From assembly GCA_019112895.1 (NCBI GenBank), contig DXIM01000010.1:50992-114991 (forward strand): a DNA stretch of 64,000 bases, given 5' to 3'. Shown piece after piece: positions 13,699 through 26,955 of this stretch. This stretch comes from Candidatus Stackebrandtia faecavium. Its GTDB lineage: Bacteria > Actinomycetota > Actinomycetes > Mycobacteriales > Micromonosporaceae. How positions within the stretch are numbered: position 1 is the first letter of the stretch; every line of letters starts with the position of its first letter. Under the pieces are notes generated by a model that searched no databases, was not told where the DNA came from, and worked only from the letters and a program-made list of their open reading frames with translations. Made by a program: the position numbers and the translations under genes.

Positions 13699-13735
13699 AT
13701 CGGGTGGGGCCGCGATGAGCCCGGCCCCACCCGAT
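13699..13735. terminator. Hairpin between convergent genes
   Basis: atcgggtggggcc...ggccccacccgat, 13-bp stem. Confidence 0.8.
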
Positions 13736-14577
13736 CAAGCTCTTAGCGCGGAACGAAACGTCCCACTCGCCATCTCGTGTGCCGCTTGACGCGCGTCGGC
13801 GATCCGTTTGTCGAGCGGGCCCGGTGAGATCGCCCGCGTCGCGACGCGCAACGCACGCAATTGACCAGTCACGACGGCGTCGGTACCGGGCAGAACGGGG
13901 ATCGCGTACATGCGTCGCGCCCAAGCCGGCAGGGAGTTCAACGCCAGCGTCGTCACGAACGGGACCCCCAGGCGCAAAGCTGCGATCCGTCGCGGCATCG
14001 GTGGACGGAAGGAAGCCAAGACGGCGCGCAGCGCGTCGCCTGTGAGCTGCAGTCTCGGCCGCATCGAGGCGAAATACTCCTCGAGTTGGGCGGCACTGTC
14101 GGGGACCCGTTCGCGGTCCAATCCCACAAGCTCTGCGGAGTTGCGGTTCTCGTCGATGTAGCGATCGACCTGATCGTCATCGTCGAAGACGCCAGCCCGT
14201 TTCGCTATCTCGGCGTACGAACCGATCTCGGCGCAATGAACCCACTGCAGATACTCGGGCTCATCGAGTCGAAACGCCGTCGCCGTCTGCGGGTCGAAGC
14301 CGCGGAGTTTGGCGTGGATGGTGCGGACACGCTCCGCGGCGCGGCGTGCTTCCGGCTTGGTCCCGAACGTGCGCACGTTGACGAACTGCGCGGTCCGCAG
14401 GAAGCGGTTCCACGCCTTGCCCGTGTCAAACAATGCCGAATTCTGGTATGTGCCGCGCATGACCCGCGGGTGCAGACTCTGTAGATACATGGCTCGCAAT
14501 CCCGCGACCCACAGGATTGGCTCGACATGGACCCGCCACGTCACGGACCCGGAACCGAAGAAGCCCTCGTCGCCCAT
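13735..14577 (-). CDS. Oxygenase MpaB family (DUF2236) protein
   Basis: GSVTWRVH...GLRAMYLQSLHP, VRTIHAKL, LQWVHCAEI. Confidence 0.88.
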   Translation of the reverse strand: MGDEGFFGSGSVTWRVHVEPILWVAGLRAMYLQSLHPRVMRGTYQNSALFDTGKAWNRFLRTAQFVNVRTFGTKPEARRAAERVRTIHAKLRGFDPQTATAFRLDEPEYLQWVHCAEIGSYAEIAKRAGVFDDDDQVDRYIDENRNSAELVGLDRERVPDSAAQLEEYFASMRPRLQLTGDALRAVLASFRPPMPRRIAALRLGVPFVTTLALNSLPAWARRMYAIPVLPGTDAVVTGQLRALRVATRAISPGPLDKRIADARQAAHEMASGTFRSALRA

Positions 14578-14664
14578 ACCTACAGTCTATTGCCGAACGT
14601 GGCGATGACCAGCCCACGAGCCACACCGCGACGGTGCGGACCGTGAAGCGTTCGATATCGGTAG

Positions 14665-15876
14665 TCAGCCCGCGCGCCCGGCGACAGCTTCGGGCTCCGC
14701 TTGCGCCACGACCGGCACCTTCGTCCTCAGGAATGCCGGGATCACCGCGACGGCCAGTACACCCGCCAGCACCGCGAAACCGATCGGGTAACCGGTCACG
14801 ACTGCCAGGTAGCCGAAACCGACCGCACCGATACCCATGCCGCCATCGTAACCAATATTCCACAATGCACTCACCGCTCCAACGCCCCCGGCGTCCGTAC
14901 GGTCCAGCATCATCGTCAACGTGAGGTTTTGTGTCATGCCGAAGCCCATGCCGAAGATGCACATGCCGCCGATCACCATCGCTGCGCTGCCCGTGGCGTA
15001 CATGCAGGCGGCCCCGATCGCGGCCGCCGCCACTGCGGGAGGCAGAAGCCGCGACGCCCCGAACCGGTCAGACAGCCGGCCCGCCAACCACCGAAACACC
15101 GACGTCAGCGTCGTCTGCGCCAGCAAAGCCACGACCACGACCGAGCCGGAATCGGTGATGCTCACCGCCAGCGGCAAGAAAGTCATGAACACACCCGTGG
15201 CCGTCGCTGCGGCCGTGAAGATCAACGCGGGCCGCAGCACCGCGGGCCTTGCGGCGGCGGCCGCGACACCGGACGTGCCGACGTACGGCTTGCGCGTGTT
15301 CGGGTAGGCGCCGACGGCGACCAACGCGCACAATGCACACAGGAAAGCCAGCACGAAAACCACCGTGAAGCCGACGTTCTCGCTGAGCCAGACCCCCAAG
15401 GGCAGCCCGAAGATCGACGGCACGCACACCGCGACGCCGTACAAGCCGAGGGTTTCGCCTCGCCGCCCTGGCGCCGCGAACTCGGCGGCCAGCGCGGTGG
15501 CACCGACGACGACGATCCCGAAACCGATCCCGCGCGCGAACGCCACCGCAATGATGGCGCCGAACTGGTCGAACGGCACCAGCACCAACGACGGGATAGC
15601 CAGCAGCAGATAGCCGGCGATCATGACGTTGCGGTATCCCCATCTCGCCACCAACTGCGGCATCACTAGCTCGATCGCGACGGTGGCGAGCATCATCACC
15701 CCCGTCACGAGACCGGCGTCGACGGAACTTCCGCTGGATTTGCTGGCGTACAGGGGCGCCACCGTCATCAGGAGGAAAAAGCTCGACAGCGACAGCAAGG
15801 AACCTGTCAACAACCACGCGAGTCGGGGCGTCACCAACCGCGGTTTCTGCGGCACCGAGGACACGTGGCCGGCCAC
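14665..15876 (-). CDS. MFS transporter
   Basis: About 12 hydrophobic segments; MFS motif A-like LAGRLSDRFGASR. Confidence 0.9.
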   Translation of the reverse strand: MAGHVSSVPQKPRLVTPRLAWLLTGSLLSLSSFFLLMTVAPLYASKSSGSSVDAGLVTGVMMLATVAIELVMPQLVARWGYRNVMIAGYLLLAIPSLVLVPFDQFGAIIAVAFARGIGFGIVVVGATALAAEFAAPGRRGETLGLYGVAVCVPSIFGLPLGVWLSENVGFTVVFVLAFLCALCALVAVGAYPNTRKPYVGTSGVAAAAARPAVLRPALIFTAAATATGVFMTFLPLAVSITDSGSVVVVALLAQTTLTSVFRWLAGRLSDRFGASRLLPPAVAAAAIGAACMYATGSAAMVIGGMCIFGMGFGMTQNLTLTMMLDRTDAGGVGAVSALWNIGYDGGMGIGAVGFGYLAVVTGYPIGFAVLAGVLAVAVIPAFLRTKVPVVAQAEPEAVAGRAG

Positions 15877-16047: not shown

Positions 16048-17493
16048 TCAGGCCGACCGTTGTGTGCGCGTCCATCCGTGCGGTAGGGCCACATTTCGCC
16101 GGTCGCGGTGACGGATCATCGCCTGTTTCGTTTTGCGTTCCCGCAGTCGCTGCAGTGCCGAATATTGCGCGCTGGCGGCTTCCTCCTCGACCGCCATGCG
16201 CCTGGCGAAGGACCGCACCGTGGCATAGAAGAGGTATCGCTTCGAGTTGTCGCATTTCAGGAGGCTCTCGTCGTGGAGCGTCGACAACAATGCAGATGTG
16301 TCGCGCGGCGACTGCCCAGTCAGTGCCGCGGCGGCCTCGATATCGATCGCCCGCCCCGGATAGATTGACAGCAATCGAAACAGTCGCTGGGCCGGCGCAG
16401 GCAGAACGCGGTACGAGGCGAGCAGGGCATGGTGGCTGGCTTCATGGATGGGCAGACCCCGTATGCGGGCGACATGGTCCGCCAGTGTCCAGTCCGGCTT
16501 GTCACGCAAGGCGTTACCGACGACGGTCAATTCGAGTGGCAATTGCTGACACAGGTCCACAAGGGTCCGTGTGCGTTGTGCGTCGCCGTCGATGCGATCG
16601 ACCGGATCGTAACTGCGCAGCAGCGAGACCGCATCGTCGCGGTCCAACACGTCCAGATCTATGTGCTCAGTCCCGGGCACGTCGATGGACCGGCGGCTGG
16701 TGATGATCACGATGTTGGCGCCGTAGCGCGGAATCAACGGCTCCACCTGCGCCGCCGATTCGGCATTGTCGAGGACGACGACGGCGCCTCCGGACCGCAA
16801 CATCTGACTGAATTCCTCGGCGAATCTCGCGCGCGTGAGGCTGTCGACCTGTTGCGGCTTCATCCCCAACCGTTTCAGGAAGCCGCGCAGCACCGCCACC
16901 GAATCGGCTGGCGGTTCGGCGGCGTGATAGCCGCGCAGATCGACGCTCAGCGCGGGCCCGTGCGGGTGCCCATCCTCCGCCAGGTCGGCGCAGATTCGGT
17001 GTGCCAGTTCGGTCTTTCCCACACCGGCCGGACCGCGCAGCGTGATCACCGTCGAACGGTCGGCCGCTTGACCGCCCCGGATATAACGTCTGGCCAGCTC
17101 CCGTTGCCGATCTCGCCCATGGAAACACCACGTCGGCGCGGGTATTTGTGTAGCGATCGGCACCGCCATGGATCGATGTATGCCGTCGACAATGAGCCGG
17201 CATTCCCGTTGGAGCCAACGCAACGCATCCTGGTCCAAGCCGAGCGCCGCGCCGATCTCACGCACGGTTTCCACATTAATTCGTTTACGACCACGCTGGA
17301 AATAGCCGTGGATCGTGGCGACGGACGGTGGCGGCTCCGGAACGCCCTTCTTCTGCCGCTCGTCCTTGATACGACGCCGGATCTCGCGAAAGGACGCATG
17401 CTTCGCATTACTGCGTGCGGTGGACAAGAATTCAGCTATGTCGTCAAGACTGCGGACCGCGATCGGGTCCCTACATCCGCACGCGTGAATCAT
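16048..17493 (-). CDS. HTH + NB-ARC (STAND) transcriptional regulator with no TPR tail
   Basis: N-terminal XRE-like helix region, Walker A GPAGVGKT, VLDNA Walker B, ITSRR, C..LPLEL, then ends after the winged-helix part. Confidence 0.82.
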   Translation of the reverse strand: MIHACGCRDPIAVRSLDDIAEFLSTARSNAKHASFREIRRRIKDERQKKGVPEPPPSVATIHGYFQRGRKRINVETVREIGAALGLDQDALRWLQRECRLIVDGIHRSMAVPIATQIPAPTWCFHGRDRQRELARRYIRGGQAADRSTVITLRGPAGVGKTELAHRICADLAEDGHPHGPALSVDLRGYHAAEPPADSVAVLRGFLKRLGMKPQQVDSLTRARFAEEFSQMLRSGGAVVVLDNAESAAQVEPLIPRYGANIVIITSRRSIDVPGTEHIDLDVLDRDDAVSLLRSYDPVDRIDGDAQRTRTLVDLCQQLPLELTVVGNALRDKPDWTLADHVARIRGLPIHEASHHALLASYRVLPAPAQRLFRLLSIYPGRAIDIEAAAALTGQSPRDTSALLSTLHDESLLKCDNSKRYLFYATVRSFARRMAVEEEAASAQYSALQRLRERKTKQAMIRHRDRRNVALPHGWTRTQRSA

Positions 17494-17582: not shown

Positions 17583-18854
17583 CTAGCCGAGTTCCACACC
17601 ACAGAATCGGTACAACTCCTCCAGCAGTCGCCGGCCGTCCTCCTTCGAAGCGGGAAGCGGCCCCTCCTGCGCTAGACCCGCGTCAGGAAGGTCCGTCAAG
17701 ACTTCGGCGACCGTGCCGCCACCGGCCCGCAACCTGTCGACGATCACGTCGAGTTGGTCCGAGGTCAACGCGGTCTCCACGACGCGACCGTTCACCCCGC
17801 ACACCATCGTCCCGTTGCTGGTAGGCGTCCACGCGCAGACCTCGTCCTCGCCCATGCGCACGCGCGTGTCGTCCGGCAGCGCGCACGGTTCCAGCAGAGC
17901 CGGCACCGGCTCATAGCCGCCTGCCGTCACGCACGCCACGGATCGTTGCGCCGCCCGATCCGTCAACCGCGCACCGGACAACGGCTCAATCAAAGCCGAC
18001 ACGGCCCCCGACATGGCGTCCGGCACTGAGCTGGTCAACACGCCATCCTCGTCGGGCCCTGGCGATGTCATCGCGACATCGAGCGAAGGCAGATACGACT
18101 CCATGCTCTCGCTCACGAGCATCTCGAGGTCGTAGTCCTTATAGAACTTCGGCAGCTCATAGATCGCGCGGTGCCCATCAACCGGCACCCCGACGTTCAC
18201 GCTGGTGGCAGGCGGGCCGTCCCCACTCTCGCCGACGTGGAAATAGCTCGACGGCCAATACAGCATCTGGCCCGGCTCGACATCGACTGCAAACGAGCTA
18301 GGCAGATACTCCTGGTATTTAAGCACCGTCGACACATTCTCGGTCCAGGGACGCTGGGCCCAAAACCGCATCCGCTTGCGCTCGCGCAACGCGAACATGA
18401 ACGTCGCGAACCGATCCTTATGGACACCCACCGGGCTCGACTCATAGTTGCCGTGGAACAACGTGGTGATCGCACTGGTGGCAGGGACACCGATCTGCTG
18501 CCACAATCCCCGATAAAACCTGCGCTGACGCTTCCACATCGCCCAATCGAAGATATGGAAACCGTTGACCATCAGCGCATAGGGCTGCCCGTCCAGCTGC
18601 TTGGCGACCCGGTCGATGTAGCCGTCGAAGTCACCGTCATCGTGCGTCGGCAGGTACGCGTCCGGGATGTCCTGCTGGAACCGGCCGATCGTCAGGTTCA
18701 CTGCCCGTCGGCTCGCGTTCGTAGCTGCGGTGAAAACCTCGTCGGGAACGAAAGGCGGGTCGGCCAGGTTCGTGTACAGCACCGGAGCCCGATTCCAGTA
18801 CTTGCGGGCGAAAGTCTCCCAATCGAACGTGGTCTCCACATTCACATCAGACAT
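17583..18854 (-). CDS. JmjC/cupin Fe(II)-2-oxoglutarate oxygenase (RiPP tailoring candidate)
   Basis: FARKYWNRAP, VGVHKD (HxD), PGQMLYWPSSYFH (distal His); ATG at 18854 overlaps the upstream stop. Confidence 0.85.
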   Translation of the reverse strand: MSDVNVETTFDWETFARKYWNRAPVLYTNLADPPFVPDEVFTAATNASRRAVNLTIGRFQQDIPDAYLPTHDDGDFDGYIDRVAKQLDGQPYALMVNGFHIFDWAMWKRQRRFYRGLWQQIGVPATSAITTLFHGNYESSPVGVHKDRFATFMFALRERKRMRFWAQRPWTENVSTVLKYQEYLPSSFAVDVEPGQMLYWPSSYFHVGESGDGPPATSVNVGVPVDGHRAIYELPKFYKDYDLEMLVSESMESYLPSLDVAMTSPGPDEDGVLTSSVPDAMSGAVSALIEPLSGARLTDRAAQRSVACVTAGGYEPVPALLEPCALPDDTRVRMGEDEVCAWTPTSNGTMVCGVNGRVVETALTSDQLDVIVDRLRAGGGTVAEVLTDLPDAGLAQEGPLPASKEDGRRLLEELYRFCGVELG

Positions 18855-20007
18855 CACTGCCTCCATCCTGCGCGACCATCTCGACAGCGCGTATGACGTA
18901 CAACCGTTGCAGCAGTGCCTCCAGGCCTTGCGAACCTCCACACAGTTCCTCCACCGTGACGTCGGTGCATTGCTTGAATTCCTGCAACCACTCGGCGGCC
19001 GCCTCGCCCTGCACGCTGAACGCGTGCCCGTTGGCGGCCCACATTTCGCTACCGTCCGCTTGAGGATTACGCACCACGAGACTGCTCAATCGCACTCTCG
19101 TGTCCGGTTCGAACTCGATCGGCTGCCGTGGATCAGGGGCCGGATCCAGGCATGCGGCGCTCGTCTGCTGCGTCCACAGGATCGCCGAAATGCGCGCCTC
19201 CGATTCCGGGTCCAAGTTGTCGCGCATGGTTTCGGCCGTCGTCTTAAACGGACCCGCCGCAGGAATCCGGCCGTGATACGAATCCAACTGCAAGTACGGG
19301 ACTTTATCGACATCCAAAGCGTTGTCCACCGCCAGCGCGCCGCGATTGAAGACCGATGCCGACAGTTGCCTGGAATCCTCGATGACCTGTACCTGCACGG
19401 CCATGTAGTCGTCGTGGAACGATTCCGTGCGCGCGAACCCTGCCGGGTGGTAGACCACGTCGCCCGTTCCGACCGTCATGTCGACGGTCTTGCCTCCGCC
19501 ACTGATCGTGATGTCGGCTCCACCCGAAAGCACCAACGTGATCCCCGCCTGCGCCACCTCATCGGCCGGTAGATGGACCTCGAAATTGGATCCCAACCGG
19601 ATGAACGTCTTGACCGGGACGACCGGGTAACCCACGCGTTTCCACAGTGATCGAACGAGGTCCCGCATCTGGGACCACAGACGGTAGTTGCCCATGAAAC
19701 CTTCGGCGATCCGCACCAAGAACCCGGCGGCGTCGAGCTCGGCACGCATTTTCTTCGCATACGTGCGCGGGTCGTCTCCGGAGTCCGGCAGCAAGTCATG
19801 CAACGCCCGCGTCCGCCCCATCGGGGTCCATACCGCCACGTCGGGCAATGCCCGCATCCGCGTGCCGGCGCGAAAAGGCGCGCACACGTCGATGACCGTC
19901 GAGAACACGTCGCCGGTCGGCAACGGTGAACCGCCGAACGCGTTGGGCACATGCACCGGTTCCCGGCCCCAATGCTTCGCCAGCGTGTGTATCCACGAAT
20001 CGTTCAT
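18847..20007 (-). CDS. JmjC/cupin-like protein lacking the metal-binding triad
   Basis: Same architecture as neighbour (KHWGREPVH, GDVVYHPAG, C-terminal helical domain) but no HxD and no distal His. Confidence 0.7.
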   Translation of the reverse strand: MNDSWIHTLAKHWGREPVHVPNAFGGSPLPTGDVFSTVIDVCAPFRAGTRMRALPDVAVWTPMGRTRALHDLLPDSGDDPRTYAKKMRAELDAAGFLVRIAEGFMGNYRLWSQMRDLVRSLWKRVGYPVVPVKTFIRLGSNFEVHLPADEVAQAGITLVLSGGADITISGGGKTVDMTVGTGDVVYHPAGFARTESFHDDYMAVQVQVIEDSRQLSASVFNRGALAVDNALDVDKVPYLQLDSYHGRIPAAGPFKTTAETMRDNLDPESEARISAILWTQQTSAACLDPAPDPRQPIEFEPDTRVRLSSLVVRNPQADGSEMWAANGHAFSVQGEAAAEWLQEFKQCTDVTVEELCGGSQGLEALLQRLYVIRAVEMVAQDGGSDV

Positions 20008-22391
20008 GTGTTGACCGCCTTCGACAATGGGAAACGGTTGTGCAGGATCTGTGCGTATTCCGTCAGGGAGACCATGCCAATCTCCTCCCGACGTTTCTCG
20101 ACGTCATCGGCGCTTCCGTCGAGCTGACAGGGCACCAACGCGTCACCGTCGCGTTCGAACTTCGTGCCGTACCGTTGTGGACGGTCGTCCTGTAGCCGCA
20201 TCGCGTCCGTCAGATACGCCACCATCTTCAACAATTGGCGATCCCGTCGCGCCTCATCGCGCAGCAACGCCAGGCAGTGCCGCTGAAACGGCGTGGTCGC
20301 CCCGTGTCGGTGCTGCAGCAAGGCCACCGCCGATTCTGCGGCGGCCCGACCGACCTTGTCCGCGCTCGGCCACCCGTGCACCGCCACAACATCGGTGAGG
20401 TAATCCGTCGCGCTGCGTGTCAACCGCTCGAGCTTCGCCGCGGCCTCGTCGTCGCTGAATCCGCCCTGCGCCCAGGGCTCGCGGATCGCGCCGTCCACAT
20501 CGCCGATGCGTTCGAGCTTCTCGGCGACCTCCGCGTAGTCGCCGACTTCGTGATGGGGCCGATCCTGCGGCTCGATCGGTTCCAGGTTCACGGTGTCGTC
20601 GTTCCAGCAGTAATTGAGGTCCTGGCCGAACTCGCTGAATCCGAACCGTACCTGGCCGCACGCGATATCCCACAGGTCGATGGAGACATCCTCGTCATGG
20701 TCGGCCCATGCGGCGATCGGCACGTTCGCGCGAACGTATTCGACCGCATCCCGGACGAAAACACCGAAGCCGGTCATGTCCCACGCGCGACCGTGCAACG
20801 CATCCTCGCTCGGTATGACGCAGGGGCGCGGGACGTCGTCACCGGCAACCCGAAACCGCGTGGTCGTGTCGCCGCGGGTCGCCTGTTTAAGCAGGGACCC
20901 TCCTTGCGCACTCACGAAGAAGTAGGGCACATCGCCGTTGTGCAACTGGTTCTGTTCGTCCTTGGTGAATTCCAGTTCCGGACTCTTATCCGGTGTGAAC
21001 AGTCGACGCTGGAGCTCGTCGTCGTAGACGGCCGTCGGTCGTGGCACCACGCGAATTCGATTGTCCCGGCGATGGGCCGCCAAATTCCGCGCGATCCGGT
21101 CTCGCTGCCCGTTCAGGAGCACCCAGGCCTCGAAGGCGCCGCGCAGAAACTGCGGCAGATAAGCACTGTAGCCAACGTTTCCGTTGCTGTCGGTGACGAC
21201 GGTACGCGTCTCACCGCGAGCCCACGGCTTCCGGATTCGGCATATCCGCGGGGCGTCGTCACCATCGAAATCGAGGTACGCCCACGGTGCATCGACCCCG
21301 CATTCCCGTTGCCGGTCTTCGAAACCGACATGGTGAAGCGCGTCGTCGGGGCCGGGAATGAGACCCGTCCCCCACAGTCGTTGAATATCCGAAAAGTACA
21401 CCTCGATATCGACCGGTACATAACGGAGCCGACCGTCAGGACCGTTGGGGCCAACGAGCACATTGCCTTCGATCAGGTCGCCGATTCCGAACGCGAAACA
21501 CACGGCCGCGAGCGCGCCCGCATCGCGCCACATCTCGGCCGCCACGTCCGGCTCAACCACGGGGCCGGACAGACGCGGAGTCAGTGGCGCCATCTGCGTC
21601 GGCGCCGACACCCACTCCTGCCACAGGTAATCGTGGCTGTCGTAACCGGCGCCGCGCCAACAATGCAGTTGCGGCAGTCGGAATCGCCCATCGGCCAGAT
21701 CGTTGATCAGCCCAAAAGTGGAGGGTTCGTCCCCGAGACTGTGGCGAGCCGAGAAGAGGGCGTCGCCGCGCGCCGGACTCGGTTTGTACGCCACGACCGC
21801 TCCCCCCTGGAGCGTCACCCGCAGGACCCGCGATCCCCCATTGTGGGTCTCGGCTCCACATGCGGATACGCCCGTCACCGGCCCCTCAAAGGCCGGTTCG
21901 TCTATCCAGGAGCAAGCCATGTCGCTGTCGAGCCGCTCAAGGAAAATCTCGAGCGCGCGTGTCAACTGGCGGCGGCGGTGGGCGGCTCGGCTCGCGGCCC
22001 GCGCCGCATGCGTGAACGCGCAGACCGTGAAGATCTCCGAAAGTAGTGGCCCGAACAGGTCCGTGTTAGTGATGGCCAGTACACCGGGCTTGACCCGCTC
22101 CGCATGTTTCTCGACCATGGTCTTGCACCATGAGTCGAGGGCGACGATGGTCTTGACGACGGGCCGAAAGGTTGCGTGGCCGAGGACGGCGCCCAAGGCG
22201 TCCACCCGGGCCGGGTTGAGGCCCGGTTCTTCGCAGACGATGAGATCGTCCTGCGCAGGCCGAGCGATCGGCGGAAAAATACCGGCCACGCTCGCGGTAC
22301 TCGCAAGGTGGTCGAGGAGAACGCGCACCGGTTCGGGCAAGGCGGCAACTTCCTCGGTGCCGGCTTTGGGTAGCAGTCGTGTCATTTCCAT
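20004..22391 (-). CDS. LanM-type dehydratase domain (DUF4135) fused to C-terminal DUF6624; no LanC cyclase domain
   Basis: ETHNGGSRV, YKP, DLIEGN, PVDIE, RVVPRPTAVY (LanM kinase/eliminase motifs); C-terminal HGWP..KVG..A..A..LLQH..FQRHCL..AYLTD..PQRYGT (DUF6624); ggagg RBS before ATG at 22391. Confidence 0.85.
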   Translation of the reverse strand: MEMTRLLPKAGTEEVAALPEPVRVLLDHLASTASVAGIFPPIARPAQDDLIVCEEPGLNPARVDALGAVLGHATFRPVVKTIVALDSWCKTMVEKHAERVKPGVLAITNTDLFGPLLSEIFTVCAFTHAARAASRAAHRRRQLTRALEIFLERLDSDMACSWIDEPAFEGPVTGVSACGAETHNGGSRVLRVTLQGGAVVAYKPSPARGDALFSARHSLGDEPSTFGLINDLADGRFRLPQLHCWRGAGYDSHDYLWQEWVSAPTQMAPLTPRLSGPVVEPDVAAEMWRDAGALAAVCFAFGIGDLIEGNVLVGPNGPDGRLRYVPVDIEVYFSDIQRLWGTGLIPGPDDALHHVGFEDRQRECGVDAPWAYLDFDGDDAPRICRIRKPWARGETRTVVTDSNGNVGYSAYLPQFLRGAFEAWVLLNGQRDRIARNLAAHRRDNRIRVVPRPTAVYDDELQRRLFTPDKSPELEFTKDEQNQLHNGDVPYFFVSAQGGSLLKQATRGDTTTRFRVAGDDVPRPCVIPSEDALHGRAWDMTGFGVFVRDAVEYVRANVPIAAWADHDEDVSIDLWDIACGQVRFGFSEFGQDLNYCWNDDTVNLEPIEPQDRPHHEVGDYAEVAEKLERIGDVDGAIREPWAQGGFSDDEAAAKLERLTRSATDYLTDVVAVHGWPSADKVGRAAAESAVALLQHRHGATTPFQRHCLALLRDEARRDRQLLKMVAYLTDAMRLQDDRPQRYGTKFERDGDALVPCQLDGSADDVEKRREEIGMVSLTEYAQILHNRFPLSKAVNT

Positions 22392-22439
22392 GGCCACCTC
22401 CGGCGTAGCGCGTAAAACTGTGGAATTTGTAGCGGTGTA

Positions 22440-22478: not shown

Positions 22479-22607
22479 TTAAAGCGGGGTGCAGTAAATG
22501 TTCATGCAAGTGACGGGGTCCTTGGAAGGCTGCTTCGGCAGCTCTTTCGTCAGCTCGCCAAGAACGACATCCACCGAACGGGTCTTCGATGCTTTTTCTT
22601 TGGACAT
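22479..22607 (-). CDS. RiPP precursor peptide A1 (42 aa)
   Basis: MSKEKASKTRSVDVVLGELTKELPKQPSKDPVTCMNIYCTPL; RBS gaggaa; ORF track starts it too far upstream. Confidence 0.9.
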   Translation of the reverse strand: MSKEKASKTRSVDVVLGELTKELPKQPSKDPVTCMNIYCTPL

Positions 22608-22825
22608 GGATTTCCTCTTCTCAAGGTCAGGCGAAGCGAACACTTCGCCATAGTTCTGGGCCCATCGATTTTCCAATGGCCCAAGGCCGGAACGGATCAA
22701 CAGATCGTTACACCGCCGGCCAGCTCAGGGGGATCTCATGTCATGGCCCGCTGGGCACACCCACTGTCATTCGGCTACTCACGCGATGCGTGTCGGCCAT
22801 TCACCTGTGCCGACTCATGTGTGGC

Positions 22826-22856
22826 GGGCCGCGCATGCTCTCTGGCTGCGCGGCCC
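22826..22856. terminator. Hairpin downstream of precursor A2
   Basis: gggccgcgca-11 nt-tgcgcggccc, 10-bp stem. Confidence 0.55.
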
Positions 22857-22879
22857 ATTAGTCATGCGATTGGGAATCC

Positions 22880-23014
22880 CTACCAGGGTTCACAATAGAC
22901 TCTTGTGCAGGTGACAGGGTCCTTGTTCTGTTCCCGCTGGCGAGGTAGTTCTTTCGACAGTTCGCCGAGGACTACATCAACCGGACGGGACTTGCCTTCA
23001 TTGATTTTGGACAT
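22880..23014 (-). CDS. RiPP precursor peptide A2 (44 aa)
   Basis: Manual translation: MSKINEGKSRPVDVVLGELSKELPRQREQNKDPVTCTRVYCEPW; RBS gaggat; below the ORF-track cutoff. Confidence 0.9.
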   Translation of the reverse strand: MSKINEGKSRPVDVVLGELSKELPRQREQNKDPVTCTRVYCEPW

Positions 23015-23084
23015 AGCATCCTCGAATCAATCAGTATCGGCAATTACAGCGGCCGAAGCCGAATGGATTCTCTGAGCGCGTTAA

Positions 23085-23210
23085 TTACACGCAGTACATG
23101 CTCGCACAGGTCGGCCAGTCCTTCGATTCACGTTTGCTCGGCAGCTCCTTGGACAGGTCACCAAGGACTACATCAACCGGGCGGGCCTTTTCTGTCTGAA
23201 CTTTGGACAT
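23085..23210 (-). CDS. RiPP precursor peptide A3 (41 aa)
   Basis: Manual translation: MSKVQTEKARPVDVVLGDLSKELPSKRESKDWPTCASMYCV; RBS ggagga; below the ORF-track cutoff. Confidence 0.9.
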   Translation of the reverse strand: MSKVQTEKARPVDVVLGDLSKELPSKRESKDWPTCASMYCV

Positions 23211-23354
23211 AAAATCCTCCATATCGTTCAAAACATCCTGATGCGTTCGCATCTGGCCCACACGTTGCCCAATGATCGAGGTCAGCGCATCGTTTCCGAA
23301 CGAACCCGAACACCGCGCAATGAGCAGCGGTTGCGGGAATGCAGGTTAAGCCGG

Positions 23355-24197
23355 TTAAAACTCCTCGTAAACGGCCGGGTCTTGCTCCTCGGTGCGTCCG
23401 TCTTCGCGACCGAGGCCACTGATCGTGGCCATCTGTGCGGACGTCAGCTCAAAATCGAAGACGTCGATATTCTCCTCCTGCCGCGCGGGGTGCGCCGATT
23501 TCGGGATCGGAATCGAACCCAACTGGATGTGCCAACGCACAATCACCTGCGCCACCGACTTGCCGTGCTGTTGAGCGATGTCCACGACCTCGGGTTCTTT
23601 CAGCACCGCGCTGGCACGGCCCAGCGGACTCCACGACTGGGTGCGGATGCCGCGTACGTTGTCGGCGCCGCGTTGCCTCCGCTGCGGAAAGTACGGGTGC
23701 AGCTCGATCTGGTTGACGCTCGGTGCGACGCCGGTGTCGTCGATGAGCCGATCCAGGTGTTCGGGCAAGAAATTCGAGACCCCGATCGACCGCACGAGTC
23801 CCCGCTCCTTCGCGTCGATCAACGCTTCCCACGCCTGCGAGTACAAGTCCTTGCTCGGGTTCGGCCAATGGATCAGGTAAAGGTCATAGTAGTCGAGTCC
23901 GGTACGGTACAACGATTCTTCGATCGCGGTGCGGGCGGCCCGATAACGCTGGTGACGTCCCGGAAGCTTGGAACAGACCCGCATCTGGTCACGCGGCACC
24001 CCACATGTGCGCACGGCTTTGCCGACGGCGCCCTCGTTTTCATAGTTGAACGCCGAATCCAGTAGCCGGTAGCCGTAATCAACCGCGGAGTGAATGGCCT
24101 TGACACCTGCCTCGCCGCGCAGGTTGTACGTTCCGAAACCCATGACCGGAACGTGGATGCCGTCGTTTAGCTCGTATACAGGCATTTTGCGTGTCAT
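23355..24197 (-). CDS. Aldo/keto reductase (2,5-DKG reductase type)
   Basis: GFGTY, GYRLLDSAFNYENE, YDLYLIHWP, RSIGVSNF, NQIELHPY, IPKS; real start MTRKMP at 24197. Confidence 0.93.
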   Translation of the reverse strand: MTRKMPVYELNDGIHVPVMGFGTYNLRGEAGVKAIHSAVDYGYRLLDSAFNYENEGAVGKAVRTCGVPRDQMRVCSKLPGRHQRYRAARTAIEESLYRTGLDYYDLYLIHWPNPSKDLYSQAWEALIDAKERGLVRSIGVSNFLPEHLDRLIDDTGVAPSVNQIELHPYFPQRRQRGADNVRGIRTQSWSPLGRASAVLKEPEVVDIAQQHGKSVAQVIVRWHIQLGSIPIPKSAHPARQEENIDVFDFELTSAQMATISGLGREDGRTEEQDPAVYEEF

Positions 24198-24258
24198 GGC
24201 CCCCATGGTAGGAGCTACGAACCCAATATTTTCTGCCTTAGACGCATCCACGTTCGCG

Positions 24259-25518
24259 CTATGCGGGCTGTCGGTGCCGCTGGATTGCCAGCTCACCGCT
24301 GACGTGGAAGTCGCGCGATGTCGCCACGATCGCGTCCTCAACTTCACGGGATGTACGGCCACGGAACCGGAAGCGTCCGCCGACATGTTCGTAATACGCA
24401 TCGGCCGCCGGCAGGATTTCGCCCGGCCGAAGCAACGCCTCTGCGTACGGTCCCGGTACACGCCCCACCATCGACGTGGCATGAGTGATGCGGCACGGCC
24501 GCTGGGTGGGTGCCGGGGCCAACAACCAGCCGGCCACGTCCGTTCCGGGAGCGGGGGCGACGGCATCAATGGAGCGCGGCCACGGCAGGGCGCGCTGGCC
24601 GGCCAGCAAACGAAACGCCGACTCCATGAGGTCGTAACCGTGCACCTCGCGCCACAGGTACGGGATCTCGGCGCCACCGACACGAGCGCCCACTTCCAGG
24701 AAGGCGCACGACCCCGTGACACGGTCGACGAACAGTTCAAGATGGAACACGACCGGTTTACGGCTCAGCGCCCGCATCACGCCGGTCGAAAACGCCGTGA
24801 TGCTGCGCATCAGGTCGGGATCGTCTTCTTCGACCGAACCGAGCGTATCGCCGGTCCGAAAACCCAAGCAGTTGTTGACATAACGCGAGGCCCGCAATGG
24901 TCCCATCGTCGTACCGTCGAAGTAGCCGTCCACATGGTAGATCTGGCGCCCGTCGAATGCCTGAACGAGGTGGGGTTCTCCTTCCGCGAATTCGAGACCG
25001 GCACATTCGCTGGGACCATCCACTTTGATGACGCCGGCGCTGGAGCTGCCCGCGCACGGTTTCACGACGACCGGCCAGCCGTGATCTCTACCGAACTCGA
25101 CGACGTCGTGTGGGTGACGCACAGGCGCGTGGGCCGGAACCGCCAGACCCGCCCTCGATACGAGACCCGCCATGACGAGCTTGTCGCGGAACGGAATGAC
25201 ATCGTCAATGTCAGGACCGGGGCATCCCCATTGCTGACGCAATTGTGCACCGACAAGAAGGTCGTCTTCCTTCAACGCGATGATCGCTTCCGGGCGGCCC
25301 TGATTCTCGGCCAGGCGCTTCACGGCATCAGCCACCGAAGGTAGATCGTCGGTAGCGTCCACAATCGCGACTTCGGCTGCGCTGGCCGGCAACGATGGCG
25401 CGCCGACTTCGGTGGTCACATAGCTGACGGCGTAACGCGAATGGTCCACGTAGCGTTCGTAGTGCGCATAGTCGGCCAACCAACGGTGAACGATCACCAT
25501 GTGTGGGCGTGCAGCCAT
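24259..25518 (-). CDS. ATP-grasp ligase (amino-acid ligase-like)
   Basis: FRDKLVM, VVVKP..GSSSAGV, YHVDG, VFHLELF, FLEVGARVGGA; RBS ggagga before ATG at 25518. Confidence 0.88.
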   Translation of the reverse strand: MAARPHMVIVHRWLADYAHYERYVDHSRYAVSYVTTEVGAPSLPASAAEVAIVDATDDLPSVADAVKRLAENQGRPEAIIALKEDDLLVGAQLRQQWGCPGPDIDDVIPFRDKLVMAGLVSRAGLAVPAHAPVRHPHDVVEFGRDHGWPVVVKPCAGSSSAGVIKVDGPSECAGLEFAEGEPHLVQAFDGRQIYHVDGYFDGTTMGPLRASRYVNNCLGFRTGDTLGSVEEDDPDLMRSITAFSTGVMRALSRKPVVFHLELFVDRVTGSCAFLEVGARVGGAEIPYLWREVHGYDLMESAFRLLAGQRALPWPRSIDAVAPAPGTDVAGWLLAPAPTQRPCRITHATSMVGRVPGPYAEALLRPGEILPAADAYYEHVGGRFRFRGRTSREVEDAIVATSRDFHVSGELAIQRHRQPA

Positions 25519-26774
25519 AACAGCTCCTCCCCCACCTCGTAGAAGTCCGGACCATCCAAATAGCGCACGGTGCCGAAGTCCCGCATCACGACTTCCTCCA
25601 CCGAGTCGGCCAGGTTCACCACGAGCGGACACGACATGTCGTCGACGGTGCGTCGAAGCTGGCCGCCCTCCGGAACCAGCATGCGGATGTCGTGCAGGCT
25701 CTCCAATTCGCGCAGACGAGACATCTTCGGGTAGGACCGCAGCGGCGCCTCAATGTGCGACACGGTCATCGCCGACACGAAATGCTTCGTCAGTCGGTAG
25801 TCGTTCTTCCAGCGCGCGGCGAAACGATCCGGATCCGTGTACGCGTCGACGATCCATTCCAGTTGGGCTTCGCCGATGCACTGCTGCGAGTAGTAAGGAA
25901 TGTCGAGCCCTGCCATACGCGCCGCGGCCTCGACCAGGCACGGTCCGGTCGGGGTCATCTTGATCTCCAGATGCGAGGCGCCGTGCGACACGCCAAGCGC
26001 GTCGAGGACGTTGGCCGCATACGGCAGGAGACGGTCCTGCACCTCACCGCACTTGGGCAGGAGTCGGATTCCCGTGGTGAGGTCGACGATCCCGTTGGCC
26101 GAGATCTTCTCGTATTTCCAGATGTCCGTAACATGATGCTGGCCGTCGCGACTCACCGAATCCACGATGTATTCGCCGCCGGCAAGGTATTCCTGAGCCA
26201 CGACCGCCTCGTTGCGTGCCGAGAACACGCTGTCGGACGCCAGGATCGAATGATATGCAGCCACCGATTCCTCTGGTGTGTCACAGAAGGCGACGCCGTC
26301 GCCGGCCGCACTGCGGATCGGCTTGACCACGACCCGACCGCCAATGTCGGCGTGCCACTGCGCCAACTGCTGAGGCGACGACACCAACAACTGGGCGGTG
26401 GCGCGCAAGCCTGCGGCCCGCACGGTCTCCATCTGCACGTATTTATCGCGCCGGGCGACGCTGTAGCCGGTGCCGTTGGTCAACAGCCCCATAGCCTCGC
26501 TGAGTTGGTCGGTCAGCTCGACCCCGCTTTCGCCTCCGGCAATGACCGCCTCGGGAGCGTACGGCTCCAACTGCGCCATAGTCGCGTTGATATCGCCGTC
26601 ATGCACAATGTTGACCGCGTACGGCGACAGATCGAAATCGGATCGGTACACCAACGGGGTTTCCGGTGTACTTTGGACCCTGATGACGTCGTACCCGGCT
26701 TTATGGAAATGCGGTGCCAGACGCCGCGTCGGCGAGTAGGCGTCGACCACGACGACATACTTTTTCGTTCTCAT
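25494..26774 (-). CDS. ATP-grasp ligase (NikS/L-amino-acid ligase-like)
   Basis: MRTKKYVVVVDAYSP, RRDKYVQ, VVVKPIRSAAGDGV, QEYLAGGEYIVD, HLEIKMT, VEAAAR. Confidence 0.88.
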   Translation of the reverse strand: MRTKKYVVVVDAYSPTRRLAPHFHKAGYDVIRVQSTPETPLVYRSDFDLSPYAVNIVHDGDINATMAQLEPYAPEAVIAGGESGVELTDQLSEAMGLLTNGTGYSVARRDKYVQMETVRAAGLRATAQLLVSSPQQLAQWHADIGGRVVVKPIRSAAGDGVAFCDTPEESVAAYHSILASDSVFSARNEAVVAQEYLAGGEYIVDSVSRDGQHHVTDIWKYEKISANGIVDLTTGIRLLPKCGEVQDRLLPYAANVLDALGVSHGASHLEIKMTPTGPCLVEAAARMAGLDIPYYSQQCIGEAQLEWIVDAYTDPDRFAARWKNDYRLTKHFVSAMTVSHIEAPLRSYPKMSRLRELESLHDIRMLVPEGGQLRRTVDDMSCPLVVNLADSVEEVVMRDFGTVRYLDGPDFYEVGEELLWLHAHTW

Positions 26775-26827
26775 AACGGACCCTTCACCTTCAACGCGAT
26801 TGCCATCCGCCCAAACATGACCAATCG

Positions 26828-26893
26828 CGCTACAGATTCGCTGCAGATCGACCGCACGTCGGTGTCCAGCGCTTTTACAGCGGATCTGTAGCG
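26828..26893. promoter_or_regulatory. Putative SARP-type binding repeats in a divergent promoter
   Basis: 18-bp inverted repeat (16/18 match) with 11-bp periodicity on both strands: cgct-acagatt-cgct-gcagatc-gacc-gcacgtc (+) and cgct-acagatc-cgct-gtaaaag-cgct-ggacacc (-). Confidence 0.55.
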
Positions 26894-26955
26894 GGCGTTG
26901 GAAAGCTCGAGTTGCTCCCCTTTCGGCAGGGGCCACGCAACTATCGAAACGGTGA

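What the first reader, a model, noticed from the sequence alone, without database searches (positions are those of the whole stretch)
17583..20007. Active/inactive JmjC-cupin pair, possibly a catalytic subunit plus a substrate-presenting partner
Seen in sequence: the downstream cupin has the H-x-D...H triad (VGVHKD ... SSYFH). The upstream paralog aligns in layout but has no HxD and reads AGFARTES at the distal-His position. Both end in a short helical domain, and their genes overlap (ATGTCTGA), suggesting translational coupling. Established knowledge: ribosomal oxygenases (YcfD/NO66) carry C-terminal winged-helix domains, and RiPP recognition elements share that fold. Some RiPP oxygenases work as enzyme-plus-partner heterodimers (MbnB/MbnC, TglH/TglI). 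Inference: an obligate heterodimer that hydroxylates or crosslinks the invariant Tyr, Asp or Cys.
Basis: partly seen in the sequence, partly recalled or inferred. Interest (0 to 1): 0.72.

Follow-up and report, generated by a model that had tools for sequence, protein, structure and literature searches.

The report
Active oxygenase paired with dead paralog
Two overlapping genes encode a ribosomal-oxygenase-like iron enzyme and a full-length paralog that has lost every iron- and cosubstrate-binding residue, a pair kept together in all 84 related loci examined next to a cyclase-less lanthipeptide-type dehydratase and small [S/T]C-x3-YC peptides, so it is probably a two-subunit peptide oxygenase of an uncharacterised natural-product family.

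Summary
On the minus strand, A (18847-20007, 386 aa) and B (17583-18854, 423 aa) overlap by ATGTCTGA. The upstream DUF4135-DUF6624 gene (D) overlaps A by ATGA.

Profile comparison shows A and B are paralogs along their whole length. Both AlphaFold models (pLDDT about 89-90) match the three-domain ribosomal oxygenases YcfD, NO66 and MINA53.

B keeps H145-x-D147, H206 and the 2-oxoglutarate lysine K160, in 45 of 45 relatives. A has D, V, R and A at those positions, and 0 of 81 A-family proteins keep the triad.

A is still under purifying selection (dN/dS 0.35, against 0.26 for B). It lies directly upstream of B in 84 of 84 loci from Actinomycetota and myxobacteria.

Conservation is complementary: B's barrel is conserved and its C-terminal domain is loose (Kribbella lost it), while A shows the reverse.

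Best reading (0.55): a heterodimer modelled on the ROX homodimer, with B catalytic and A a non-catalytic peptide- or D-docking subunit. The dimer, the target residue and the chemistry are inferred. The "invariant Asp" is refuted: only S/T, C, Y and C are conserved. An RRE-like C-terminal domain is supported by topology only. I found no paper describing this cassette.

The parts
18847..20007 (-). Gene A: 386-aa ROX-fold paralog without the metal or 2OG ligands (pseudo-oxygenase).
   Evidence: ORF. AlphaFold model pLDDT 89.8. Foldseek top hits are YcfD, MINA53 and NO66 at full length, E 1e-13. None of 81 family members has the triad. dN/dS is 0.35.
17583..18854 (-). Gene B: 423-aa ROX-like JmjC Fe(II)/2OG oxygenase, the predicted catalytic subunit.
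   Evidence: phmmer hit to NO66. Pfam JmjC_2 at 20.6 bits, just under the cut-off of 22. Model pLDDT 89.2. Foldseek hits NO66, MINA53 and YcfD at E 2e-15.
18847..18854 (-). ATGTCTGA, where A's stop overlaps B's start.
   Evidence: Sequence read. In related loci the A/B junction is a 4-nt overlap in 48 of 80 and within 11 nt in 72 of 80.
18860..18864 (-). GGAGG Shine-Dalgarno for B, inside the 3' end of A and 5 nt before the ATG.
   Evidence: Read directly from the sequence.
20004..20007 (-). ATGA, where D's stop overlaps A's start.
   Evidence: Sequence read. The D/A junction is a 4-nt overlap in 50 of 80 loci.
18414..18422 (-). Codons for H145-K146-D147 of B, the HxD of the facial triad.
   Evidence: Aligned to the HYD of NO66. 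H and D are invariant in 45 of 45 B proteins.
18375..18377 (-). Codon for K160 of B, the predicted binder of the 2OG C5-carboxylate.
   Evidence: Aligned to the Lys of GRK in NO66. Invariant in 45 of 45 B proteins. The matching A-family column is Leu or Met.
18237..18239 (-). Codon for H206 of B, the distal His of the triad.
   Evidence: Aligned to the distal His of NO66. Invariant in 45 of 45 B proteins.
19555..19563 (-). Codons for D149-E150-V151 of A, the positions aligned to B's HKD.
   Evidence: hhalign mapping. The family columns are variable: E/R/A/K at the His position and P/S/A at the Asp position.
19429..19431 (-). Codon for R193 of A, aligned to B's distal His206.
   Evidence: hhalign mapping. 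This column is His in only 32 of 81 A proteins.
19549..19551 (-). Codon for Q153 of A. This column is His in 69 of 81 A proteins and is the only conserved His in the barrel; it aligns with B's F149.
19834..19878 (-). A residues 44-58, PFRAGTRMRALPDVA. This is the A-specific signature motif (family consensus PFRAGTRFRALPDVRF); B is variable here.
   Evidence: A-family conservation, compared with B's variable stretch.
18850..19122 (-). C-terminal beta4-alpha3 domain of A (residues 296-386), winged-helix or RRE-like in topology, with the WAxNGHxF motif.
   Evidence: Secondary structure of the model. Ten columns are at least 90% conserved. The domain is retained in Kribbella A.
17586..17891 (-). 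C-terminal beta4-alpha3 domain of B (residues 322-423). It is poorly conserved and absent from Kribbella B.
20004..22397 (-). Gene D: DUF4135 (LanM-type dehydratase domain) fused to DUF6624, with no cyclase domain. It is translationally coupled to A.
   Evidence: Pfam hits at 2.8e-16 and 1.4e-10. A D-like ORF was found in 81 of 84 loci.
22479..23261 (-). Three tandem precursor genes ending ...PVTCMNIYCTPL, ...PVTCTRVYCEPW and ...WPTCASMYCV. These are the presumed substrates.
   Evidence: ORFs. The [ST]C-x3-[YFW]C core near the C-terminus, with a (F/L)DLVIG(D/E)LE leader, occurs in 71 of 84 loci.

Best explanation
A and B are ancient paralogs of the ribosomal-oxygenase (ROX: YcfD, NO66, MINA53) type. 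Each has a JmjC double-stranded beta-helix, a helical dimerisation domain and a C-terminal beta/alpha winged-helix-like domain.

B is a working Fe(II)/2-oxoglutarate oxygenase, with iron ligands H145, D147 and H206 and the 2OG ligand K160. A lost all four positions before the family spread, but it is maintained by selection.

The most likely arrangement is a heterodimer that replaces the ROX homodimer, joined through the helical domains. B supplies the only active site. A supplies non-catalytic functions: holding the precursor's leader with its better-conserved C-terminal domain, and/or docking the complex onto the DUF6624 end of the LanM-type dehydratase D that is translated just before it.

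The complex would then oxidise the conserved [S/T]-C-x3-Y-C core of the co-encoded peptides. That could be a hydroxylation, as in all known ROX enzymes, or an oxidative crosslink involving Tyr or Cys. It would act before or after D dehydrates the Ser/Thr.

Shown here: paralogy, fold, loss and retention of the catalytic residues, purifying selection, strict co-occurrence and gene coupling. Inferred: physical heterodimer, division of labour, target residue and reaction.
For: - Paralogy over 389 columns: hhalign probability 100%, E 1.7e-48.
- Both models are confident. Their best PDB matches over the full length are YcfD, NO66 and MINA53.
- The helical domain of ROX enzymes is required for oligomerisation and activity (PMC6182338, read). 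A second protomer is therefore expected, and a paralog can fill that place.
- Triad plus Lys: 45 of 45 in B, 0 of 81 in A.
- Median dN/dS over 262 close pairs: A 0.35, B 0.26. Window versus its nearest relative: about 0.12 for A's C-terminal part and 0.10 for B.
- A lies immediately upstream of B in 84 of 84 loci that were found through B motifs alone. Junctions are mostly 4-nt overlaps for both A/B and D/A.
- Complementary constraint. B's barrel has a mean top-residue fraction of 0.80 with 51 columns at or above 90%; A's has 0.52 with 9 columns. A's C-terminal domain has 0.54 with 10 columns; B's has 0.44 with 2 columns.
- In five Kribbella species B stops right after the helical domain, while A keeps its C-terminal domain.
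- In myxobacteria a stand-alone DUF6624 protein still directly precedes A-B.
Against: - No direct evidence of a physical A-B contact. No multimer prediction could be run, and no A-B fusion was found. The one candidate, P0169, is a frameshift artefact.
- The only natural fusion seen joins D to A, not A to B. It is a single 4.6-kb contig. A may therefore be D's partner rather than B's.
- The C-terminal domain has no sequence similarity to PqqD/RRE families.
- A's A-specific motif (PFRAGTRFRALPDVRF) and its 85%-conserved barrel His could indicate a catalytic role of its own.
- B's conservation figure for the C-terminal domain is lowered a little by the five truncated Kribbella rows in the alignment.
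Confidence: 0.55

Rival explanations
1. A is a separate non-redox enzyme. It would be the missing cyclase or template that directs Cys addition onto the Dha/Dhb made by the cyclase-less dehydratase D, taking the place that the LanC domain holds in LanM. B would be an independent tailoring hydroxylase, probably a homodimer.
For: - D has DUF4135 but no LanC-like domain.
- The core has an invariant Ser/Thr and two invariant Cys.
- A always follows D/DUF6624, usually with a 4-nt overlap.
- One D-A fusion reproduces the dehydratase-then-second-domain order of LanM.
- A has its own strongly conserved motifs and one conserved barrel His.
Against: - There is no conserved Cys/His zinc site of the LanC type. 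In the barrel the only conserved polar residue is a single His, and the window's A has Gln there.
- A retains the ROX dimerisation domain.
- B's loss of its C-terminal domain in Kribbella is easier to explain if A supplies that domain in a complex.
- The fusion is a singleton.
Confidence: 0.15
2. A is the partner of D, not of B. It would be a leader-binding or stabilising subunit of the dehydratase, and B would act alone afterwards.
For: - D/A junctions are as tightly coupled as A/B junctions.
- One D-A fusion exists.
- The DUF6624-A adjacency is kept even where DUF4135 is encoded elsewhere, as in myxobacteria.
Against: - A is B's paralog and keeps the ROX dimerisation module.
- Kribbella B lacks a C-terminal domain of its own.
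- The A-B adjacency is 84 of 84, while a D-like ORF was found next to A in only 74 of 80 non-redundant loci.
- The two roles are not exclusive. A ternary D-A-B complex would fit both.
Confidence: 0.15
3. A is still a catalyst, using a non-canonical site. Examples would be a one- or two-His metal site, or a cofactor-free cupin reaction such as isomerisation or epimerisation.
For: - A His is conserved in 69 of 81 A proteins inside the barrel.
- Purifying selection acts over the whole protein.
- Cupins are chemically versatile (established knowledge). For example, the non-heme epimerase SnoN appears among the weaker fold hits.
Against: - 0 of 81 have the triad, and the 2OG lysine is replaced by Leu or Met.
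- The conserved His aligns with a Phe of B four residues after the metal His.
- That His is Gln in the window and Tyr in Kribbella.
- A's barrel is the least constrained part of the pair.
Confidence: 0.07
4. The pair has nothing to do with the small peptides. It hydroxylates a ribosomal or other cellular protein, as YcfD does.
For: The fold and closest structures are ribosomal oxygenases. Some databases label homologues '50S ribosomal protein L16 3-hydroxylase'.
Against: - The distribution is patchy. Only 6 of 41 related genomes carry it, with two copies in one genome.
- It is always embedded in the precursor-D-A-B cassette.
- The window's cassette is followed by an NB-ARC regulator gene and an MFS gene; the regulator gene also follows B in the closest relative.
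Confidence: 0.03

Closest known systems
Ribosomal oxygenases (ROX): E. coli YcfD/RoxA, human NO66 (RIOX1) and MINA53 (RIOX2); Pfam PF08007 JmjC_2
   Same: Both A and B share the three-domain architecture of JmjC barrel, helical dimerisation domain and C-terminal winged-helix-like domain. B has the same HxD...H triad and 2OG lysine. ROX enzymes work as oligomers through the helical domain (PMC6182338).
   Different: - ROX enzymes are homo-oligomers of active subunits acting on ribosomal proteins.
- Here there are two diverged paralogs (16% identity), one without any catalytic residue, in a peptide natural-product cassette.
- The window's B scores just under the Pfam cut-off (20.6 against 22), and A does not score at all.
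RiPP enzyme-plus-partner holoenzymes MbnB/MbnC (methanobactin) and TglH/TglI (3-thiaglutamate)
   Same: The logic is the same: an iron-dependent oxidase that acts on Cys-containing precursor cores, together with an adjacent, co-translated non-catalytic partner that binds the peptide. Both also have cores with two X-Cys pairs. (The pairing of these enzymes is established knowledge, cited in PMC12636437.)
   Different: MbnB and TglH are MNIO (DUF692) TIM-barrel multinuclear iron enzymes, and their partners are unrelated proteins. Here the partner is a dead paralog of the enzyme itself, and the fold is JmjC/cupin with 2OG.
Solo JmjC-type RiPP tailoring oxygenases: CzlI (curacozole, Phe to Tyr) and BipG (biphenomycin, ornithine hydroxylase)
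   Same: These are Fe(II)/2OG JmjC-subfamily enzymes that hydroxylate residues of ribosomal precursor peptides in actinomycete clusters (PMC11575548; PMC12707348).
   Different: - They act as single proteins with no inactive paralog.
- CzlI resembles YxbC (1VRB) rather than the three-domain ROX enzymes.
- Neither is linked to a DUF4135-DUF6624 protein.
Class II lanthipeptide synthetases (LanM) and the cyclase-variant LanMbC of dehydrazoles
   Same: The neighbouring gene D carries the LanM dehydratase domain DUF4135. There is precedent for DUF4135 enzymes that make dehydro-residues without lanthionine rings (PMC10676384).
   Different: D has no LanC-type or class III cyclase domain at all. DUF6624, followed by the A/B pair, stands in its place.
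JmjC pseudoenzymes such as JARID2 (from my own knowledge, not tested here)
   Same: A JmjC fold that has lost its iron ligands and serves as a non-catalytic subunit of a larger complex.
   Different: JARID2 is eukaryotic and chromatin-associated. It is not paired with an active paralog encoded in the same operon.

Membership tests
ROX-type JmjC oxygenases (YcfD/NO66/MINA53, PF08007) | 2-His-1-carboxylate facial triad (HxD...H) in the double-stranded beta-helix | tested here: met
   For B: H145, D147 and H206 align with the NO66 triad and are invariant in 45 of 45 B proteins. For A this feature is NOT met: it has D149, V151 and R193, and 0 of 81 family members have the triad.
ROX-type JmjC oxygenases (YcfD/NO66/MINA53, PF08007) | Basic residue binding the C5-carboxylate of 2-oxoglutarate | tested here: met
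   B's K160 aligns with the Lys of NO66's GRK and is invariant. A has Ala164, and this family column is Leu/Met in 71 of 81, so the feature is not met for A.
ROX-type JmjC oxygenases (YcfD/NO66/MINA53, PF08007) | Three-domain architecture: JmjC, helical dimerisation domain and C-terminal winged-helix domain | tested here: met
   Foldseek aligns about 410-490 columns of both models to YcfD, NO66 and MINA53 at E 1e-13 to 2e-15 and probability 1.00. TM-scores are 0.45-0.55, as expected for multi-domain chains with flexible domain orientation.
ROX-type JmjC oxygenases (YcfD/NO66/MINA53, PF08007) | Score above Pfam's gathering threshold for PF08007 | tested here: not met
   The window's B scores 20.6 bits against a cut-off of 22, and A has no hit to PF08007. 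Many B homologues do pass, for example Kribbella B at 25.2 bits and the precomputed PF08007 hits.
ROX-type JmjC oxygenases (YcfD/NO66/MINA53, PF08007) | Substrate is a ribosomal protein (Arg or His C-3 hydroxylation) | not testable with these tools
   The context argues against it. The pair is always inside a precursor-D-A-B cassette, and its distribution is patchy.
RiPP recognition element (RRE, PqqD-like) | [quoted passage not shown] | tested here: met
   The predicted C-terminal domains have the right order. A: strands 304-307, 312-315, 321-325 and 328-332, then helices 335-345, 352-356 and 360-371. B: strands 331-333, 340-344, 350-354 and 357-361, then helices 365-376, 382-385 and 404-416. 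This is topology only, and each has one extra strand.
RiPP recognition element (RRE, PqqD-like) | Detectable sequence or profile similarity to PqqD or known RRE domains | tested here: not met
   A profile of 28 C-terminal domains searched against PDB sequences gave no RRE protein (best E 0.12, unrelated). No PqqD hit in Pfam even at E up to 10.
RiPP recognition element (RRE, PqqD-like) | Binds the leader peptide | not testable with these tools
   This needs binding assays or a complex prediction. The conserved leader motif (F/L)DLVIG(D/E)LE is a candidate ligand.
Enzyme-plus-partner RiPP holoenzymes (MbnBC/TglHI type) | Catalytic subunit is an MNIO/DUF692 enzyme | tested here: not met
   Both proteins are JmjC/cupin folds. 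The resemblance is functional only.
Enzyme-plus-partner RiPP holoenzymes (MbnBC/TglHI type) | Obligate physical complex of catalytic and non-catalytic subunits | not testable with these tools
   Indirect support only: 84 of 84 co-occurrence, overlapping genes and complementary domain conservation.

The most novel reading that the evidence does not exclude
The DUF4135-DUF6624 dehydratase, the dead ROX paralog A and the active ROX-like oxygenase B form one three-part machine that defines a new RiPP class. In this reading the pseudo-oxygenase occupies the place of the lanthipeptide cyclase and presents the peptide. The JmjC subunit would carry out a macrocyclising oxidation on the invariant [S/T]C-x3-YC motif, such as a Cys-Tyr or Cys-dehydro-residue crosslink, rather than a simple hydroxylation. 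That chemistry is not known for ROX-type enzymes.
Probability: 0.2. Interest if true: 0.85.

Novelty: new variant of a known kind. Interest (0 to 1): 0.62.

Why it matters
Ribosomal oxygenases are known as homo-oligomers that hydroxylate ribosomal proteins, and the role of their winged-helix domain is still called unclear (PMC6182338). This pair looks like a natural separation of functions. One paralog keeps the chemistry and lets its C-terminal domain drift or disappear. The other keeps that domain and discards the chemistry.

If the heterodimer is confirmed, three things follow:
- It would be a clear bacterial example of a JmjC pseudoenzyme subunit.
- It would give a handle on what the ROX C-terminal domain does, namely peptide recognition.
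- It would open an uncharacterised peptide natural-product family. At least 119 of the roughly 185,000 species genomes scanned encode a B relative, in genera including Streptomyces (griseus, scabiei, globisporus), Kitasatospora, Micromonospora, Nonomuraea, Kribbella and Myxococcus.

The family also has an invariant [S/T]C-x3-YC core, whose two X-Cys pairs suggest a crosslinked or metal-binding product.

Tried and rejected
- **Single-protein genome scan.** The search for related loci with B alone found nothing. The alignment query worked.
- **Word-index search with A.** It found only 5 relatives. The exhaustive HMMER search found 95 representative clusters.
- **P0169 (774 aa).** It looked like an A-B fusion but is out-of-frame Arg/Pro-rich read-through, so I rejected it.
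- **P0130 D-A fusion.** It is in frame, but it is a singleton from one 4.6-kb Logan contig, so I kept it only as weak evidence.
- **RRE test by sequence.** The profile of C-terminal domains against PDB sequences and Pfam gave no PqqD or RRE match.
- **DUF6624 against PDB sequences.** Only a marginal EccA1 hit at E 0.02, which is uninformative.
- **SmaO/SmaX 'oxygenase pair'.** This Asp-to-aminomalonate pair is linked in the literature to DUF6624-rich graspetide clusters. SmaX is an HD-domain protein, so it is not related to A.
- **Alternative metal site in A.** No conserved H/D/E/C cluster was found. The literal HDD at 198-200 is not conserved.
- **Literature searches for this cassette.** DUF4135+JmjC, DUF6624, JmjC+lanthipeptide, cupin+LanM and similar terms found no description.
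- **One paper not held.** Xia et al., J Am Chem Soc 2025, 147:26693, on alpha-KG-dioxygenase-catalysed macrocyclisation in RiPPs, could not be read. Overlap with that work cannot be excluded.
- **Model coordinates.** They are not exposed in the Python box, so pocket geometry could not be inspected.
Full report
**What is there**

On the minus strand, one search lists two ORFs: 18847-20007 (A, 386 aa) and 17583-18941. Homologues start at MS[DE]VNVETTFDW, so B's real start is the ATG at 18854, which gives 423 aa.

The junction reads ...GAT GTC TGA for A and ATG TCT GAT... for B. This is the 8-nt overlap ATGTCTGA, with GGAGG 5 nt upstream of the ATG. The upstream gene D (20004-22397) ends in ...ACA TGA while A begins ATG AAC, a 4-nt ATGA overlap. 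D, A and B are therefore chained.

Pfam places D in DUF4135 (the LanM dehydratase domain, 2.8e-16) plus DUF6624 (1.4e-10), with no cyclase domain. A gets only a sub-threshold Cupin_3 hit. B gets sub-threshold JmjC_2 (20.6 bits against a cut-off of 22).

Three short ORFs upstream of D end in PVTCMNIYCTPL, PVTCTRVYCEPW and WPTCASMYCV. Downstream of B lie an NB-ARC/AAA regulator gene and an MFS transporter gene.

**The two proteins are paralogs of ribosomal oxygenases**

- BLASTP of A against B gives E 4e-6 over the N-terminal 140 residues.
- Profiles built from 45 A and 45 B sequences align over 389 columns with probability 100% and E 1.7e-48, at 16% identity.
- AlphaFold2 models from these alignments are confident: A has pLDDT 89.8 and pTM 0.87; B has pLDDT 89.2 and pTM 0.87.
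- For both models, Foldseek against the PDB puts the ROX enzymes first and over the whole length. These are Rhodothermus and E. coli YcfD, MINA53 and NO66, at E 1e-13 to 2e-15 and probability 1.00. Single-domain JmjC proteins (YxbC, FIH, JMJD7) come only afterwards.
- ROX enzymes consist of a JmjC barrel, a helical domain "required for oligomerization and activity", and a winged-helix domain of unclear function (PMC6182338).

**One is equipped for catalysis, the other is not**

phmmer aligns B's HKD (145-147), K160 and H206 with the HYD, GRK lysine and distal His of NO66. These four residues are invariant in 45 of 45 B proteins.

Through the profile alignment, A has D149, V151, A164 and R193 at those columns. 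Across 81 non-identical A-family proteins:
- The His column is E/R/A/K.
- The Asp column is P/S/A.
- The Lys column is Leu or Met in 71.
- The distal His column is His in only 32.
- None has the triad.

The only conserved His in A's barrel (69 of 81) aligns with B's F149. It is Gln in the window's A and Tyr in Kribbella. A's literal HDD at 198-200 lies beyond the distal-His position and is not conserved.

**A is not a decaying gene**

Over 262 pairs of loci with 80-97% identical B proteins, median dN/dS is 0.35 for A and 0.26 for B. Against the closest relative (a 4.3-kb contig), the values are about 0.12 for A's last 123 codons and 0.10 for B.

A also has strongly conserved motifs of its own:
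- PFRAGTRFRALPDVRF near residues 44-58.
- LLP..D.
- W111 and R115.
- WAVNGHAF in the C-terminal domain.

**The pair is invariably together**

I scanned one genome per species using two motifs of B only. This gave 119 stretches encoding B relatives, of which 80 were kept. Four more loci came from exact look-ups.

- Every one of the 84 loci has an A-family ORF ending at B's start.
- Among 80 non-redundant loci, the A/B junction is a 4-nt overlap in 48 and a 3-nt gap in 13 (the myxobacteria). The D/A junction is a 4-nt overlap in 50.
- A D-like ORF was found in 81 of 84 loci.
- A small ORF ending in [ST]C-x3-[YFW]C, with a (F/L)DLVIG(D/E)LE leader, occurs in 71 of 84.
- Only S/T, C, Y and C are conserved in the core. 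The Asp of the window's peptides is not.
- In myxobacteria DUF6624 is a stand-alone 206-aa protein that still directly precedes A-B, and a 50-aa ORF follows B; the precursor ORFs found in myxobacterial loci likewise lie downstream of B.
- Among 41 related genomes only 6 carry the pair, and one genome has two copies. That pattern fits an accessory cluster and not a housekeeping function.

**Evidence for a division of labour**

Column conservation is complementary between the two proteins:

| Region | Mean top-residue fraction | Columns at or above 90% |
|---|---|---|
| B barrel | 0.80 | 51 |
| A barrel | 0.52 | 9 |
| A C-terminal domain | 0.54 | 10 |
| B C-terminal domain | 0.44 | 2 |

In five Kribbella species B ends right after ...AGGFEP.P, the end of the helical domain. 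It lacks the C-terminal domain altogether, and the next gene is an unrelated ADP-ribosylglycohydrolase. Kribbella A keeps its C-terminal domain.

[quoted passage not shown] This is the order used to define RRE domains. A recent survey noted RRE-like folds fused to PF08007 JmjC domains, and bacterial JmjC homologues in RiPP-like contexts (PMC12710340). However, a profile of these domains finds no PqqD or RRE protein by sequence, so this remains a topological resemblance only.

**Most likely mechanism**

Since ROX enzymes need a second protomer joined through the helical domain, the simplest reading has four parts:
- A has taken the place of that protomer.
- B contributes the single Fe(II)/2OG site.
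- A contributes peptide recognition and/or docking to the DUF6624 end of D.
- The complex oxidises the [S/T]C-x3-YC core.

I rate this at 0.55. The heterodimer, A's role, the target residue and the reaction type are all inferences.

The main rivals are:
- A is an independent non-redox cyclase or template standing where LanC would be (0.15).
- A is D's partner rather than B's (0.15). A ternary complex would reconcile this with the main reading.
- A has a cryptic catalytic site (0.07).
- The pair is a housekeeping protein hydroxylase (0.03).

One D-A fusion protein exists (P0130), but it is a singleton from a 4.6-kb contig. An apparent A-B fusion (P0169) is a frameshift artefact.

**Comparison with what is known**

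- By fold and catalytic residues, B is a ROX-like JmjC oxygenase. A is a ROX-fold pseudoenzyme.
- Neither can be filed as a ribosomal oxygenase in function.
- Known JmjC RiPP enzymes (CzlI; BipG) work alone.
- Known enzyme-plus-partner RiPP oxidases (MbnBC, TglHI) have another fold and unrelated partners.
- Cyclase-variant DUF4135 dehydratases are known from the dehydrazoles, but not with this pair.
- DUF6624 has been flagged as a possible undiscovered biosynthetic enzyme class in graspetide clusters (PMC13097080).
- Searches of the held literature found no description of this cassette.
- One possibly relevant paper was not readable (Xia et al., JACS 2025).
I re-derived the distribution independently.

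**Verdict**

The feature is real, conserved and under selection. I class it as a new variant of known kinds: a ROX-type oxygenase combined with an enzyme-plus-dead-partner arrangement. Interest is moderately high.

Noticed in passing
window 19549-19551 (A residue 153): The window's A has Gln at the one barrel position where 69 of 81 family members have His. It is the only member with Gln, so this copy is the most degenerate at that site.
   Followed up: partly
L046, L052, L057, L069, L076 (Kribbella loci; e.g. L057:7001-7972): Kribbella B proteins are 319-330 aa and stop right after the helical domain, so they lack the C-terminal beta/alpha domain. The A proteins there (334-353 aa) keep theirs. 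The next gene in L057 is an ADP-ribosylglycohydrolase.
   Followed up: yes
L004:6121-11089 and other myxobacterial loci (L043, L048, L066, L068, L074, L079, L081, L083, L084): Myxobacteria have a different gene order: stand-alone DUF6624 (206 aa), then A, then B. In L004 a 50-aa precursor follows B and then a 466-aa protein with no Pfam hit, with polyketide synthase genes nearby. In L041, L079, L081, L083 and L084 a D-like ORF lies further downstream.
   Followed up: partly
P0130 (1204 aa, Logan contig of 4.6 kb): An in-frame fusion of DUF4135-DUF6624 with an A-family protein. It is a single sequence, so an assembly indel at the ATGA junction cannot be excluded.
   Followed up: partly
window 16048-17493 (-): An NB-ARC/AAA_16 regulator-like gene lies directly downstream of B. 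The same gene follows B in the closest relative (L089/L090, 504 aa), so it probably belongs to the cluster.
   Followed up: no
window 13735-15876 (-): An MFS transporter (14665-15876) and an MpaB/Lcp-type oxygenase-domain protein (13735-14577) lie further downstream on the same strand. They could be an exporter and an additional tailoring enzyme.
   Followed up: no
window 23355-27026 (-): An aldo-keto reductase and two ATP-grasp proteins are read towards the precursor genes. DUF6624 is reported to co-occur with graspetide (ATP-grasp) clusters (PMC13097080), so a link between the two gene sets deserves a look.
   Followed up: no
L021, L023, L025, L028-L038 and others (S. griseus/anulatus/globisporus/californicus group): This clade's precursors have an extended Cys-rich core (SGSGTACG[TS]CA[GS][VI]YCC), and its A proteins retain His at the distal-His column. 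This suggests a sub-family with somewhat different chemistry.
   Followed up: no
G007 (same genus as the window): C1:3590333-3591945 and C1:2600181-2601700: One related genome carries two separate A-B pairs, each only 32-36% identical to the window's A. The cassette is patchy within the genus (4 of 7 relatives), which fits horizontal spread.
   Followed up: no
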